From positions 32,001-96,000 of the forward strand of contig CAVSHB010000004.1 in the NCBI GenBank assembly GCA_963727775.1: a stretch of DNA of 64,000 bases, read 5' to 3'. This DNA comes from an uncultured Nitrospiraceae bacterium. GTDB lineage: Bacteria; Nitrospirota; Thermodesulfovibrionia; Thermodesulfovibrionales; SM23-35. This document shows positions 33,001 through 39,000 of this stretch, one piece after another; within the stretch, counting starts at the first letter, position 1, and the number at the start of each line of letters is the position of its first letter. A program made the position numbers.

Positions 33001-36000
33001 TCGGAATATCTCGAATAAATCATCTTGTCCAACTCTAATTCCTTCGCCAACTGCAATACCGCATAGGAAGCGCCGTACTCTTTCGATTCCGCGATTTTGT
33101 GAGCGTCGGCTGAACCCTTTACCAGCACATCGCCCCTGAAGGCGGCCTGTATGAGCTTTAGTTGTTCAAGACTCATATCCTTAATGGTCCCATGTGTCGT
33201 GTGCCTGATTTCGCCCTTCTCACGGAAGGTAGTGCGAATAACGCCGTAGTGCTTATTGCCGGAAGTCTGTATTTCGAGATGGGGGCGTGGCTTCTTTTTA
33301 AATGGCATGGCTACTATTATAGGATATGATTACCACTATGTCAACTATAAAATGCTATATTATATGGCTACATTTGAAAGCCAAATACACGGTAATCTAT
33401 TGTAATATAAGCATTTATGGGTGTTTTCATAAAAGAAAATACGTTGAAAAATGATTATGCAGGACGAGGCAGTGAGGCATACAGCCCTGAGATGCTGGTG
33501 GCATTATTATTTTACGGATATGCGACGGGAGTCTTTTCGAGCAGGCAATTAGAGCGTAGCACGTACGACTCTGTAGCATTCCGGTATGTGGCAGCCAACA
33601 GTCACCCTGACCATGACACAATAGCAACCTTTCGACGTCGGTTTTTGCCTAAGCTGAAAGAACTGTTTGTGCAGATACTAATGATAGCAGCAGAAACCGG
33701 GGTATTGAAGTTAGGCACGGTCAGCTTGGATGGGACCAAAATGAAAGCCAATGCCTCAAAGCACAAGGCGTTGAGCTACGGGCATGCATGCAAAATAGAG
33801 AATAAGTTGAAAGTGGAAGTGGCGGAACTGATGAAGAAAGCTGAGGCTGCTGACAAAGCTGACATTCCTGACGGCATGAACATCCCGGAAGAGCTGGAGC
33901 GGCGAGAGAAGCGGCTGAAAATGATAGCTGAAGCAAAAGCTGAGATAGAGCGCCGTGCGGCAGAGCGGCATGCAATGGAACAAGCCGACAGTGAAAAGAA
34001 ACAGGCAGAGCGTGTAGCCAAACAAAAGCAGAGCGGCAAGAAACCCCGAGGCAAAGGACCCAAGCCGCCTGCAGCCGGGCCAACTGACAAAGATCAGGTC
34101 AATCTGACCGATGAAGAATCTCGCATAATGCCGGCATCGGGTGGAGGATTCAAGCAGGCTTATAATGCTCAAGCAGCCGTGGATACAGAAACAATGCTTA
34201 TTGTCGCAACGCATGTAACACAACAATCCAATGACAAACAGCAGATGAAACCAGCGCTTGAAGCGCTTACATATCTGCCCGAACAACTTGGCAAAGTAAA
34301 AACTATAATAGCCGACAGCGGGTATTACAGCGAAGCAAATGTGCAAGAATGTGAGAGCAAAGGAATAGAGCCATATATAGCAGTAGATCGGCAGAGTCAT
34401 AATCAGCCTTTATGGGAGCGATTCGTCGAACCGCCTCCATTGCCGGTTGATGCTGATGCAGTGACAAGAATGAAACATCGGTTGAAGACAGTTGCCGGTA
34501 AGGCAATTTATGCGATACGCAAGAGTACTGTGGAGCCGGCGTTTGGGGTAATCAAGGCAGCTATGGGATTTGACCGATTCCTGTTGCGTGGTTTTACTGC
34601 AGTCAATGGCGAGTGGGATATGATCTGCATTGCATGGAACATCAAAAGGCTGCATGCATTGAGGAACAGCCAGGTAGGCGCCTGAAAATGGCGATGGCAT
34701 AATGTATCCAACAAAACACCGGCAGGAAAGAACCGATGACAGACGATCAAATCATGAAAAATAACTACAATCGACTCTCTCGGATTCCAACCGCTGTCAA
34801 AAACAGCAATTCAAGTCCGACAGACTCCTAGAGAATGGAGAGCACAAATAACTTATAGGTCTCAATCCTTTATTCATCAAGGCTTAGGTTCTCACGTTGT
34901 GTGTTGCAATGCGCCTGGCAAGCTTCCATACGTCTCAATCCTTTATTCATCAAGGCTTAGGTTCTCACAGCATACTGTTTTTCAACAATGGAATCAATAG
35001 GTTATTAGCAGTTTTTGGGTAACCGCGACTTACTAACATTCTTCTTCTCTCAGAAGATGTCATTTTGATGTTGTCAAAGATCAAAAATACTCGACTATCC
35101 AAGGGGTTATCTCAGTTCCGATAACCTACCTCTATTTGTAGAGTTCTCAAAAAGTTTGTGCAACCCCTTATAAAATAAAGACATTCTCGTCTTTTGTGAC
35201 CTCTCCCTTGCCGAGCACGCTTACTACCCCTTGACACTTGGCGCAAAGAGAGTAAATTCTGATACTGTCCTGGTCCGACACCATCTTCTGGAGTTTAGAC
35301 CTCATCTTTTCGAGCTGCTTTTCATCAAGTATACATTCAAAAACACTATATTGGACCCTGGAACCGAAATTAAGGAGCGTCTTCGCTACCTTATTCCGCT
35401 TCCGGTCGTCCGGAATGTCGTAAGAGACAATATAGAACAACCTAACCTCACTCTGCCACAGAGATCACAGAGGGCTCAGAGAAAGAACGTCTTTGAAACA
35501 AAAAACTCTGTGTTCTCTGTGAACTCTGTGGCTGAGCTTACTTATTTATAAAGAAAATCTCCTTACCCCGTCAACAAGTCGTCTCTCACCAAAATTGATG
35601 AGCAGTCCACGCTTCAGCCCCGTGCTCTTCAGATATGACAGCACTTGAGCAGTGAAAACATCTTCTATTTTTCGTACCGACTTTACTTCAACAACGACTT
35701 CATCGTTCACAATCAAATCGAGCCGTTGTCCTTTGATAGCTTTATCCTTATAAAACACATCCATCTCTTTTTGCCGTTGATATTCAATGCTGCGTAACGA
35801 AAACTCATGGCAAAGCGCTTCTTCATAAATGGATTCGAGCAACCCCGGCCCGAGAAGCCGATGCACCTCTATTGCCGCTGCTATAATCTGTTCAGTCAAT
35901 TTGTCAGACATTCACATATGCTGCCACAGAGTTCACAGCTTTTCAAAAAGAAGTCCTTTTAGCCACAGAGCACACAGAGTTCACAGGGTTACTAATAGGT

Positions 36001-39000
36001 TCATCAGTAAGCAATCAAGTGCTCATAACTCCCCCCTCGCCCCCTCTTACCTTAAGAGGGGGTTGGGGGGCGTTACCTAAGTGAAGAACCCTGCGGCAGA
36101 GACCGCAGGGCGTCAGAAGTCAAACAACCTCAACTGCCCAACATCCTTCTCTCTGCCTTGGTTCTTTATGTATTTCTCAATCACTCCTTTATTCCCTTTA
36201 CCGCTGATCGTTGCTATGTAGTACCCATCTGTCCAGAACTCACCACCCCAAAGTTCTTTTTTTACCTCGGGGGCCTCTTCATATACTCTTTTCCCACTTA
36301 TACTCTTTATTATCTTGATCACCTCCCCCCCAGAATACTTCGATAAATATCGACACAGAATATGCACATGGTTTCGATCAAATCCAACTGTATTGATCTC
36401 TATCGCATACCTTTCTTTCAATCCTTTCAGCGCTCCAACTATAGCCCCTTCTACTTCTTTACTCAAAAGTGACTTGCGGTATTTCACCGTTATTTGAATG
36501 TGATAGTAACACTCCGATATATTGTGATACCATCGCCATATATCGTCGTCAAGAGTTACCATCGTCTCTTTATTCTATCAGTCTACAGGTCTTTCCCTCC
36601 ATTTACTCTACATACATCGGATCCTGCGGCAGAGACCGCAGGGTGTATCAATTATCAATGATGAACTCCTTAGAAATTGTCTTTTTTCTCTGGGCCCTCT
36701 GTGTCCTCTGTGGCAATGATTTTTCCTTCTATATTTGACTCAAAAATGGCGTATATCCTGCGCCGTCCTTCAGGCACCCCGCCAACTTCTCCGCCTGTAT
36801 CCTGAAACACTTTCTCAGTGTTGTATTCTCCCCGGTATAAGGATGTTTGAATTCGCGGCCCAGATAAGCTTCATATTCCGCAAAATATCTCTTCATCGCC
36901 TCCCTTTTAAGATATACGCTTCCATCCTTCTCATTTCTGTAGAAATCTTCCTGGCTCAGGATCTTATTGTTCATAAGATAGAGGGTAAACCTGTCGACGG
37001 AGGCGCGGAATTCCTCCTGAAGATCTGACGCAAGTGAAGCCCGCCCATAGTCCACCTGATGAAAATATCCCAAATACGGATCGAAGCCCAGGCCGTCGAG
37101 CAGGGATGAGATCTCGTTGAAGATCAAGTATACCCGAAGGAAAGGAGGGCATTCACAGGGTCGGTGGAAGGATGTTTGCGCCTGCCTTCAAAAGTGAAGC
37201 CGCCGAGAATCATCTTCCCGAACCCTTTGAAATAGGTCTGTGCAGCACTTCCTTCAACGCCTCGCAATGAATTCAATGATTCCGTCGTGGCAACATTCTT
37301 CATGGATGTTTCGATGCTCGTTATCTCGACATTAAAATCAATGTTCGGGTGATTGTGAGAGAAATCCTTAAGTAGGGTGAGACAATTGGTTAGCTTGCCG
37401 CTCACTATTCTCTTTGAAAGCTCCAGTTTGAATGCGTCATCGCCGTACTGCTTAAATTGCATCACCCTCAGTTCGATGTTCTTTGTTGCCGGAGAGGTGA
37501 GCTGTCCTATCAGCCTGCCCGTCCGCGTCAGAAGGGCGAGTTCGATCCCGAACTTGAATAGTTCATGCACGGCCTGTGTCGTAATCTGCACGTTCCCAAA
37601 GACCAGAACAGCGTCAATCTTATTGCATTGTATGTCGAGCAACACTTCTTTATCCTTTTGGACGATAAGCCTGTCCCCGGTTTTACATAAGACAGACCCC
37701 TGTTCGGTAAGATATAGATTAGCCATTTTAATAAGTCATGAGTCCCAAGTAATCAGTCATAAGACAGTCATTCGTCATAAGTCCCGAGTCATAAGTTATT
37801 AAACGGTGAATATCTTTAAAGCAACGACTTTTGAGATCCTGTCAAAATCTGAATCGTTATGCAGGAGAAGGAGATTATTCTCCATGGCTGCCTGGGCAAT
37901 AAGACAATCTATAGTGCTGCTGATCGTTATGCCTTTCTTCCTGCATTTAAAATAAATCTTGGCTGCTGAGGCATAAGATTCCCTTTCGTCCTTCAATACA
38001 TAAAATCGCTGGGTATCAAGATACCTTTTTACCCTATCAAATTCTCTTTCAGTCTTTATCCCTTGCAAAACTTCCTGATAAATGAGAGGAGTTATTCCAA
38101 AGGGGATACCGTTATCAAGGGCATACTGAAATCTGAGTACCGCGTCGTTTTCATTCCCCCGCAAATAATCAATCATTACCGATGTATCAACAAGAACCAA
38201 ATCAATTGCCCTTTCTCAACTTTTTATAATCATAGCCCGACCGAAACTCTATCTTCCCCCTTAATTCCCTTAAGTCCAGCCTCTGTTTAACATGAATAAA
38301 TTCTTGAAGAGCTTCATGTATCAGTTCTTTTTTTGTTTTTGCCTTTGAATACCGGAAAGCCCTTTCCACTATGTCTTCGTCCAATACTATGTTGGTCCTC
38401 ATTTTCATACACCTCCTCATACACATACTATAACACATTTAGAAAGCCTCTTTCGATTCGGCAACCAGCGAAAAGAAAGTAGAAGGAGCGATAGTAGAAG
38501 CTCTGAAAGGATTAAAAGAGAGGTATGCGATAGAGATCAGTACAATTGGATTTGATCAAAACCATATGCATATACTGTGTCGATATTTACCGAAATATTC
38601 AGGAGGTCAGGTAATCAAGATAATAAAGAGTATAAGCGGGAAGAAAGTATTTGAAGAAAATCCTGAGGTGAAAAAAGATCTATGGGGAGGAGAGTTTTGG
38701 ACAGATAGGTACTATATCGCAACGATCAGCGGCAAAGGGAATAAACAAGTAATTGAGAAATACATAAGAAATCAAGGAAGAGGCAAAGACCTTGAGCAGG
38801 TCAGGCTGTTTGAATTTTGACTTTGACGCCCTGCGGTCTCTGCCGCAGGGTTCTTCACAAACAATTGCCGGAATAAAGTTTTTATCTTTCCCTTCTTCAA
38901 ACTGCTTGTTTTTTTCCAATAATGAGTGAACGAAGCTTCTCGGAAGATTATTATTGATCTCTTTTGCGGAGACAGCTTCATAAAGAGTCTCTCCAAAATC

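What a model noticed while it worked through the whole genome (the two positions that open the first line are those of the whole stretch)
35480..36010. GxxExxY nuclease gene bounded by inverted 9-nt tandem-repeat arrays: a second repeat-capped mobile unit
g03089 (TIGR04256, PD-(D/E)XK fold) sits between inverted arrays of a 9-nt unit (CTCTGTGnn / nnCACAGAG) inside a decayed cas locus. Homologues from many metagenomes carry such caps and lie at unrelated junctions between housekeeping genes, as a mobile unit would.
Evidence so far: Flanks printed in call 194. Of 75 homologue loci with enough flank, 51 have a tandem array (31 period 9, 11 period 10, 8 period 8, 1 period 6); the inverted-match score has median 32 against 16 for direct matches. 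Neighbours include trmD-rplS, glyQ-glyS and sco-ctaD. Gene-less nonamer tracts occur at C4:68.7k and C1:473.5k.
(Added by a program. Inside this text positions count along the whole contig: contig position 32,001 is position 1 of the stretch shown here. "Call 12" and the like, gene names such as g00115 and contig names such as C1 are that model's own, and its searches are not shown. The text may have been shortened before it was handed on; [...] marks where a part breaks off. The agent that wrote the report below was given it as the finding of a first reader that could run no searches.)

Follow-up and report, generated by a model that had tools for sequence, protein, structure and literature searches.

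The report
Nuclease mini-element with repeat-array arms
A tiny nuclease gene of unknown function, framed by mirror-image runs of a short repeat, has been inserted between cas1 and cas2; the same gene-plus-arms unit turns up at many unrelated places in many bacterial phyla and is missing from the same places in relatives, which points to an apparently undescribed kind of small mobile DNA.

Summary
Real, with a corrected outline. The GxxExxY gene (35546-35911, minus strand) is intact, with a RecB/Cas4-type nuclease site. It fills the cas1-cas2 junction and holds a secondary IS200 copy. The 'gene-less tract C4:68.7k' is this outer arm.

Mobility now has direct support. Orthologous junctions are empty at five sites. 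Gene plus arms recur at 82-91% identity in unrelated flanks, with homology ending at the arm heads. At one junction the gene is 91% identical between two genera whose flanks are 80% identical, and sister species lack it. Arm type follows protein clade. Gene-less hairpins far outnumber genes. No target duplication was found.

Against: nuclease activity is untested, paralogues within genomes are old, and one genome has 725 array matches and no gene. It works like Ssn/NTS or RAYT/REPIN but belongs to neither. No description was found in ten paper searches; this scan noted the family before on other DNA.

The parts
35546..35911 (-). GxxExxY / PDDEXK_3 gene, 121 aa, intact; predicted RecB/Cas4-type site E26, D65, E75, K77 and Q89xxxY93; no Fe-S cysteine set (one Cys)
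36682..36715 (-).
   Evidence: (pair I2)
35454..35487 (+). Array D: outer right arm, ending 13 nt before the cas2 start codon; true right end
   Evidence: (I2, 88% complementary to A)
35504..35532 (-). Array C: inner arm after the gene, head facing the gene; folds with D into a hairpin (-46.7 kcal/mol, z -5.5, 0 of 200 shuffles)
35962..35990 (+). Array B: inner arm before the gene, head facing the gene; can pair with A
   Evidence: (I4)
35923..35938 (+). Array B': shorter extra inner arm, 16 nt fully complementary to C
   Evidence: (I6)
36090..36646 (-). Secondary insertion: IS200-like Y1 transposase gene (36113-36562) between two copies of its own 20-nt palindrome; 7 such pairs in the genome; not part of the GxxExxY unit proper
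   Evidence: (D3)
36032..36070 (.). A third, unrelated GC-rich palindrome inside the A-B loop; 11 relaxed matches in the genome; a related palindrome alone sits at cas1-cas2 in G033
   Evidence: (I11)
35168..35440 (-). cas2 (host gene downstream of the unit)
36729..37726 (-). cas1 (host gene upstream), in two frames with a 1-nt shift at 37124-37127; continuous in orthologues

Best explanation
A selfish mini-element of about 0.41-0.65 kb: one GxxExxY nuclease gene between inverted arms made of 2-4 copies of a C-R-C-N-R-A-K heptamer at a period of 8-10 nt, with a short fixed head. SHOWN: gene and arms move together; they land or survive in junctions inside operons, in the host's direction; the left head often overlaps the host stop codon; no target duplication; internal deletion leaves gene-less hairpins; extra internal arms border a slot with variable cargo. 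INFERRED: the protein is a minimal metal-dependent RecB/Cas4-type nuclease that recognises its own clade's arms, most likely as a hairpin or cruciform, and cuts near the head; host repair then copies or moves the arm-bounded piece, with or without the gene. The RNA stem and the shared stop codon would lower the cost to the operon. The window holds a compound copy: hairpin (with an IS200 in its loop), gene, hairpin, in the cas1-cas2 junction.
For: Empty sites: cas1-cas2 gap 5 nt in G161 and about 64 nt in G033 against 1288 nt here; radical-SAM/hemE filled in 3 of 29, gene-less cognate hairpin in 1, 50-67 nt in 10; rarA-serS, purM-purN and cbi junctions likewise. Same unit at new addresses: L048/L307 556 nt 91%, L374/L378 462 nt 89%, L070/L385 498 nt 82%, alignments ending at the arm heads. 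Cross-genus transfer: gene 91% nt (81% of same-residue codons identical) between G036 and G035, flanks 79-80% (55-59%); sisters G022 (96%) and G021 (93-95%) lack it there. The window's clade (41 rows, SH-aLRT 99) has the CACAGAG/9 arm in 40 rows across several phyla and at least 25 neighbour pairs. Arrays per Mb track gene number in 68 genomes (rho 0.60; reversed-pattern control 0.16). All 4 genomes with this clade's gene have 26-49 cognate arrays; 0 of 22 genomes without any GxxExxY gene have 7 or more. A gene-less hairpin holds a decayed 3' end of the gene (2 of 500 shuffles score as high). Co-oriented with host genes in 55 and 53 of 66; host stop exactly in the head in 18 of 57. Catalytic residues invariant or nearly so in 102 sequences; best fold match Cas4 SSO0001.
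Against: No activity was measured. G339 has 725 array matches and no GxxExxY match; 4 of 22 gene-less genomes have 50 or more. 8 of 12 genomes with 7 or more cognate arrays lack the cognate gene. Paralogues within five genomes are divergent (55-69% nt where alignable), each with its own arm type, so no recent burst of gene-bearing copies was seen. Most close pairs share their site, and in Pyrinomonadaceae gene divergence (72-85%) is about host divergence. The window's genome has almost no gene-less nonamer hairpins. 15 of 126 rows had no arm by my pattern. RecB-type nucleases are not known to join strands (own knowledge). Genomes are kin, so P values overstate.
Confidence: 0.6

Rival explanations
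1. Domesticated partner, as for RAYT or SsnA: the host keeps one gene per arm type for a function of its own (for example cutting incoming single-stranded DNA at the hairpins). The hairpins are the replicators; the gene moves only now and then by recombination between hairpins.
For: One gene per arm type per genome; divergence near host rates in one family; 6,684 array matches against 139 genes; 6 of 72,556 plasmids and 0 of 50,697 phages carry a match; the window's hairpin-gene-hairpin layout resembles NTS-ssnA-NTS (PMC11893778, sections 7 and 12 read).
Against: Patchy: 11 of 61 relatives. Whole units at unrelated addresses, cross-genus arrival, and at least 25 neighbour pairs in one clade are more than a settled host gene would show. 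Not exclusive with the best reading.
Confidence: 0.2
2. Passenger: another enzyme spreads the arrays, and GxxExxY is only their commonest cargo, for example a small defence nuclease.
For: G339 (725 matches, no gene) and 8 of 12 cognate-array genomes without the cognate gene; other cargo between arms is often defence-like: AbiGi, FRG/PDC-S15, DndC, weak HNH, HEPN, SIR2.
Against: Arm type follows protein clade (20 changes on the tree against 44-53 in the five shuffles printed), although co-inheritance alone could give this. Other cargo changes from genome to genome at one site while GxxExxY stays. Arrays are scarcer where the family is absent (median 23.5 against 123).
Confidence: 0.12
3. RNA-level intervening sequence: the arms pair in the operon's mRNA and the loop is cut or spliced out, as with rRNA intervening sequences; the DNA spreads by homing-like repair.
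For: Strong stems; co-orientation and tight fit between host stop and next start; complementarity kept beyond the heptamer.
Against: The fold and motifs are those of DNases. Outward-facing and compound layouts exist. Hairpins also occur without partner arms.
Confidence: 0.05
4. A Cas4-like helper of spacer acquisition placed between cas1 and cas2.
For: Position; weak Cas4 profile hits (E 2e-4); Cas4 is the best fold match; a 79% relative lies between an RT gene and cas1 (L058); one paper's pipelines disagree between cas4 and GxxExxY beside a CRISPR RT (10.1101/2021.01.26.428298, one passage read).
Against: No four-cysteine cluster; 3 of 3 close cas1-cas2 orthologues lack it; nearly all relatives lie between housekeeping genes; the locus has no effector genes.
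Confidence: 0.03

Closest known systems
Ssn nucleases with NTS/SRM repeats (Chenal et al. 2025, PMC11893778; abstract, sections 7 and 12 read)
   Same: Small single-domain nuclease gene flanked by cognate hairpin repeats that are also scattered in the genome; repeat variants pair with protein variants; repeat-gene-repeat layout likened to an IS; not every repeat-rich genome has the gene (81% there).
   Different: Ssn is GIY-YIG, this is PD-(D/E)XK (RecB/Cas4 type). Arms here are tandem heptamer arrays, usually one arm on each side so that the gene is the loop. Whole-unit movement, operon-junction placement and cargo slots are seen here.
REPIN-RAYT (Bertels and Rainey 2011, PMC3116915; abstract read)
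   Same: Gene-less inverted doublets forming hairpins, many per genome, tied to a low-copy cognate gene.
   Different: RAYT is a tyrosine (Y1) transposase; REPs are palindromes, while these arms are non-palindromic tandem arrays; here the gene itself travels between the arms.
IS elements with terminal inverted repeats and their MITE derivatives (own knowledge; PMC3184786 searched for passages only)
   Same: One gene between inverted ends; empty and filled alleles; internally deleted non-autonomous copies.
   Different: No DDE, HUH, serine or tyrosine recombinase; no target duplication; about half the size of small IS; no recent multi-copy bursts of the gene.
Free-standing homing endonucleases and ORF-bearing rRNA intervening sequences (own knowledge)
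   Same: Nuclease gene reaching the same site in distant hosts; terminal stem; inserted where harm is small.
   Different: Many different sites per clade; no long co-conversion of flanks (98.9% to the sister in the last 90 nt); sits between protein genes.
Cas4 / RecB-family nucleases (SSO0001, PDB 4ic1; QxxxY motif per PMC2475608, abstract start in search listing)
   Same: Fold (Foldseek E 2e-4; Z 8.0, rmsd 4.2, 100 aligned) and D...ExK plus QxxxY motifs.
   Different: Only 121 aa, no Fe-S cluster cysteines, no link to cas genes in general. PF13366 is listed as function 'Unknown', with multiple transfers, in PMC3424549 (one table row read).

Membership tests
GxxExxY / PDDEXK_3 protein family | Profile score above curated cut-off | tested here: met
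   TIGR04256 140.5 vs 35 bits; PF13366 138.9 vs 22
RecB/Cas4-type PD-(D/E)XK nuclease | Core fold and catalytic motifs (E; D; E-x-K; QxxxY) | tested here: met
   E26, D65, K77, Y93 invariant, E75 and Q89 in at least 90% of 102; model pLDDT 93.7; matches
RecB/Cas4-type PD-(D/E)XK nuclease | Metal-dependent DNA cleavage | not testable with these tools
   needs purified protein
Cas4 (CRISPR adaptation) | Four conserved Cys for an Fe-S cluster | tested here: not met
   one Cys in the protein; no Cys among the invariant or nearly invariant columns
Cas4 (CRISPR adaptation) | Conserved linkage to cas1/cas2 | tested here: not met
   absent from 3 of 3 close cas1-cas2 orthologues; neighbours mostly housekeeping
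Ssn / NTS | GIY-YIG nuclease domain | tested here: not met
   only PF13366 and TIGR04256 hit; the predicted fold is PD-(D/E)XK
Ssn / NTS | Gene flanked by cognate hairpin repeats that also occur genome-wide | tested here: met
Ssn / NTS | Site-specific cutting of single-stranded DNA | not testable with these tools
   needs an assay
REPIN-RAYT | Y1 tyrosine transposase (RAYT) | tested here: not met
   the GxxExxY protein has no Y1_Tnp hit; the Y1 gene inside the locus is a separate IS200-like element with its own palindromes
REPIN-RAYT | Inverted doublets forming hairpins, many copies, extragenic | tested here: met
   not in the window's own genome
Classical IS / MITE | Terminal inverted repeats bounding a unit that moves | tested here: met
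Classical IS / MITE | Target-site duplication | tested here: inconclusive
   no 5-8 nt duplication above permutation except single cases in 70 units; insertions are old, and a TA duplication cannot be told from the inverted end
Classical IS / MITE | DDE, HUH, serine or tyrosine transposase | tested here: not met
Homing endonuclease | One conserved target site per lineage, with flank co-conversion | tested here: not met
   at least 25 neighbour pairs in one clade; no long co-conversion; same-site cross-genus arrival seen once
Homing endonuclease | Cleavage of the empty allele | not testable with these tools
   needs an assay

The most novel reading that the evidence does not exclude
A new class of autonomous mobile element, among the smallest in bacteria (about 410 bp). 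A lone 120-aa RecB/Cas4-type nuclease recognises clade-specific heptamer arrays and drives movement without target duplication into operon junctions, using the host stop codon as part of its end. It amplifies gene-less hairpins in trans, and its internal arrays serve as exchange points for defence-like cargo genes. The many arm/protein pairs would then be a natural library of small sequence-specific nucleases.
Probability: 0.35. Interest if true: 0.92.

Novelty: new variant of a known kind. Interest (0 to 1): 0.74.

Why it matters
GxxExxY / PF13366 is a widespread family with no assigned function (49 of 71 genomes of one family carry it, up to 9 matches each). The data tie it to an abundant class of intergenic repeats (up to hundreds per genome) and give a direct test: protein, cognate substrate, likely cut region and catalytic residues are all named. 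If it holds, it adds a third nuclease fold (after Y1 RAYT and GIY-YIG Ssn) to nuclease-plus-hairpin systems, explains a common source of intergenic DNA in Nitrospirota, Planctomycetota, Acidobacteriota and other phyla, shows a route by which defence-like genes enter core operons, and may yield compact sequence-specific nucleases.

Tried and rejected
Target duplication: single look-alike cases (L027, L037, L043) did not hold against permutation in 70 units. Long flank co-conversion: not seen. Recent bursts of gene copies within a genome: not seen in five genomes. Rfam: only a sub-threshold chance hit. Solved structures by sequence: none at E<=1. Sequencing runs: no strain-level holder (best share 0.15) and no RNA holder listed. 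One contig in X4 joined 35472 to 36683 with 22 other letters, but at 80% likeness it may be any cognate hairpin, so it is not used. Four-helix-bundle genes: 2 matches in the genome, at places not among the listed heptamer arrays; the 'first' capped unit was not followed up. Rows dropped: unpublished genomes G287, G291, G306 (loci L176, L207) from all counts; five duplicate loci; 8 of 30 cbi loci were unresolved by my script; pairs with indels (G434 DUF4112, G431 purN) ignored; one search scanned 66 of 88 neighbour stretches (same-site repeats left out). Paper searches without a description of this element. The library lacks most subscription papers; supplements were not read.
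Full report
OBSERVATION. The coordinates are window coordinates. The minus strand holds a 121-aa ORF at 35546-35911 that scores 140.5 bits on TIGR04256 and 138.9 on PF13366. It is the only match in the genome. There are five arrays of a 9-nt unit built on CACAGAG, all within 35455-36714, against 0.01 expected by chance. In the gene's direction the order is: cas1 stop, arm A (forward), an IS200-like gene with its own palindromes, another palindrome, arms B and B' (reverse), the gene, arm C (forward), arm D (reverse), cas2. The best-matching pair is A with D: 34 nt, 88%. The unit is therefore 35454-36715, and the 'gene-less tract at C4:68.7k' is arm A. The IS200-like piece has 7 paired copies in the genome and is a later insertion. 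The cas locus has no RAMP gene. The cas1 shift is one base in a short T run and is absent in relatives, so it may be a sequencing error.

THE FAMILY PATTERN. Of 80 GTDB loci, 77 had 200-nt flanks; 52 scored above every shuffled or displaced control for inverted arms. Of 80 metagenome loci, 68 had flanks; 60 carried arms, against 1 of 29 displaced controls. The arms are 2-4 copies of C-R-C-N-R-A-K at a period of 8-10. The usual layout is inward, with the gene as the loop; simple units measure 405-650 nt. Compound layouts, with a hairpin on one or both sides as in the window, are common, and 3 of 126 rows are purely outward. The two ends of one unit stay complementary for 3-4 bases beyond the heptamer more often than ends of different units (66, 64, 47 and 42 of 70 against 43, 29, 28 and 35). 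No target duplication of 5-8 nt stood out. The gene runs with the upstream host gene in 55 of 66 and with the downstream gene in 53 of 66. The host stop codon lies exactly in the head in 18 of 57 (simple ORF calls). Both samples were collected with patterns from the window's protein, so its clade is over-represented.

MOBILITY. (1) Empty sites. Close cas1-cas2 orthologues have a 5-nt gap (G161), a gap of about 64 nt with a different palindrome (G033), or no insert (G001, whose cas1 has a deletion); the window has 1288 nt. At radical-SAM/hemE in the window's family, 3 of 29 junctions carry a GxxExxY unit, 1 a gene-less hairpin with the same ends, 1 a single-arm remnant, and 10 are 50-67 nt; several others, the window's genome among them, hold heptamer-period hairpins, judged by eye. 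rarA-serS (1 of 30 filled, 1 gene-less hairpin), purM-purN (0 of 29 filled, 1 hairpin) and the cbi junction (1 of 30 filled, 8 unresolved) agree. (2) Same unit, new address. Among 210 genes, most pairs at 80% nt or more share their site; four pairs share neither flank. In the three that I aligned, homology spans 462-556 nt at 82-91% and stops at the arm heads. (3) Cross-genus arrival. The gene of G036 and G035 is 91% identical while the flanking genes are 79-80%; each has a congener (93-96% in the flanks) without the gene there, and flank identity to the congener stays 98.9% up to the junction. (4) One clade, many sites. The window's clade of 41 rows occupies at least 25 neighbour pairs by my count. 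(5) Derivatives. At purM-purN, G433 has a gene-less hairpin whose loop resembles the gene's 3' end (2 of 500 shuffles score as high), while its gene sits elsewhere. (6) Cargo. Between leuD and leuB in Phycisphaerae-like loci GxxExxY stays while the gene behind the internal arm changes: 4 unrelated cargo types in 8 loci that reach leuB. Of 14 cargo stretches scanned, clear hits were AbiGi, FRG/PDC-S15 (2), DndC and DUF5677; weak hits were HNH, HEPN (2) and SIR2; 5 had none.

PROTEIN AND ARMS. E26, D65, K77 and Y93 are invariant and E75 and Q89 nearly so in 102 sequences. This is the D...ExK plus QxxxY signature of RecB-family nucleases (PMC2475608, abstract start only). The model (pLDDT 93.7) best matches Cas4 SSO0001 (E 2e-4; Z 8.0, rmsd 4.2, 100 aligned), with many PD-(D/E)XK enzymes close behind; the fold gives the class, not the function. 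Arm type follows the tree: 20 changes against 44-53 in the five shuffles printed, and 40 of 41 rows of the window's clade share one arm. Co-inheritance explains that too, so I tested in trans. In 68 Pyrinomonadaceae-family genomes, triple-heptamer arrays have a median of 123 where a gene is found (46 genomes) and 23.5 where not (22); rho 0.60, control pattern 0.16. All 4 genomes with the window's clade have 26-49 cognate arrays, and none of the 22 gene-less genomes has 7 or more. In the two single-contig relatives with one gene (G043, G051) the listed arrays are of that gene's type.

RESULTS AGAINST. G339 has the most arrays (725) and no gene over the cut-off. Eight of 12 genomes with cognate arrays lack the cognate gene. 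Arrays can therefore outlast the gene, or have another mobiliser; most of these genomes are incomplete assemblies. Paralogues in five genomes are old and differ in arm type. In one family the gene diverges about as fast as host genes. The window's genome shows no spread of its own hairpins. Plasmids (6 of 72,556) and phages (0 of 50,697) rarely carry it, though those collections under-sample the carrier phyla. Kin are not independent. Movement is therefore real but slow, and the enzyme's part in it is not shown.

MECHANISM. Most likely the protein cuts at the head of its own arms, probably in hairpin form, and host repair copies or moves the arm-bounded piece. That fits the lack of a recombinase, the lack of a target duplication, the ragged compound forms and the cargo slots. 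Survival is favoured inside operons, where the gene is transcribed by the host and the stem plus shared stop codon limit damage. I put this at 0.6. Domesticated partner 0.2, passenger 0.12, RNA-level intervening sequence 0.05, Cas4 helper 0.03.

COMPARISON AND NOVELTY. It works like Ssn/NTS (PMC11893778; abstract, sections 7 and 12 read) and REPIN-RAYT (PMC3116915; abstract), but fails membership in both on the enzyme, and in IS families on the transposase. PF13366 is 'Unknown' in PMC3424549 (one table row read). The term GxxExxY occurs in 2 listed papers, once each; I read one passage, which treats it as an RT neighbour, and saw the other only in the listing. Ten searches found no description; most subscription papers are not in the library and supplements were not read. 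Eight earlier notes of this scan describe the same family on other DNA; they are not independent support, and one gave the Ssn lead. I class it as a new variant of the nuclease-plus-hairpin kind; it would be categorically new if the enzyme is shown to mobilise the unit. None of my own counts rests on the unpublished genomes G287, G291 or G306; the tool tally of 49 of 71 includes them.

Noticed in passing
window 40501-41390: Exact 445-bp tandem duplication that splits cas10/csm1 into two ORFs; possibly an assembly error.
   Followed up: no
window 30841-31176 and 34859-34969: CRISPR repeat remnants separated by IS1634 (31677-33308) and IS1182 (33417-34685) genes; no RAMP effector genes found in the genome.
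   Followed up: partly
window 36090-36646 and 38566-38849; six more pairs on C1-C4: IS200-like element bounded by two direct copies of a 20-nt palindrome about 533 nt apart; 7 full pairs and several single copies in the genome; near-identical pieces in other samples.
   Followed up: partly
G000 contigs C1-C3; L098, L099, L103, L105, L106, L113: About 30 heptamer-period arrays in the genome, and heptamer-period inverted hairpins at the same radical-SAM/hemE junction in several relatives: a second repeat family uses the same junctions. Its partner gene was not identified.
   Followed up: no
G339 (L293-L304): Apparently single-contig 5.5-Mb genome with 725 very uniform octamer-period array matches in gene-less hairpins and no GxxExxY gene found.
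   Followed up: partly
L181, L185, L192, L199: A small clade in which both arms face outward directly beside the gene, with no outer arm seen in the flank examined.
   Followed up: no
L058 (Ca. Brocadia record): A 79%-identical unit sits between a reverse transcriptase gene and cas1; such genes may be mis-called cas4.
   Followed up: partly
L009, L010, L013, L126: At radical-SAM/hemE the left arm replaces the last codons of the upstream host gene, so the repeat encodes that protein's C-terminus.
   Followed up: partly
window 37799-38438, 41656-42209, 42479-43164: Three toxin-antitoxin-like gene pairs inside the cas locus (VapC hit for the first; the others judged from the ORFs only).
   Followed up: no
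L007, L014, L070, L085, L086, L161, L164: Other GxxExxY clades have arms of different units that my heptamer pattern misses, so the 15 'arm-less' rows overstate true absence.
   Followed up: no
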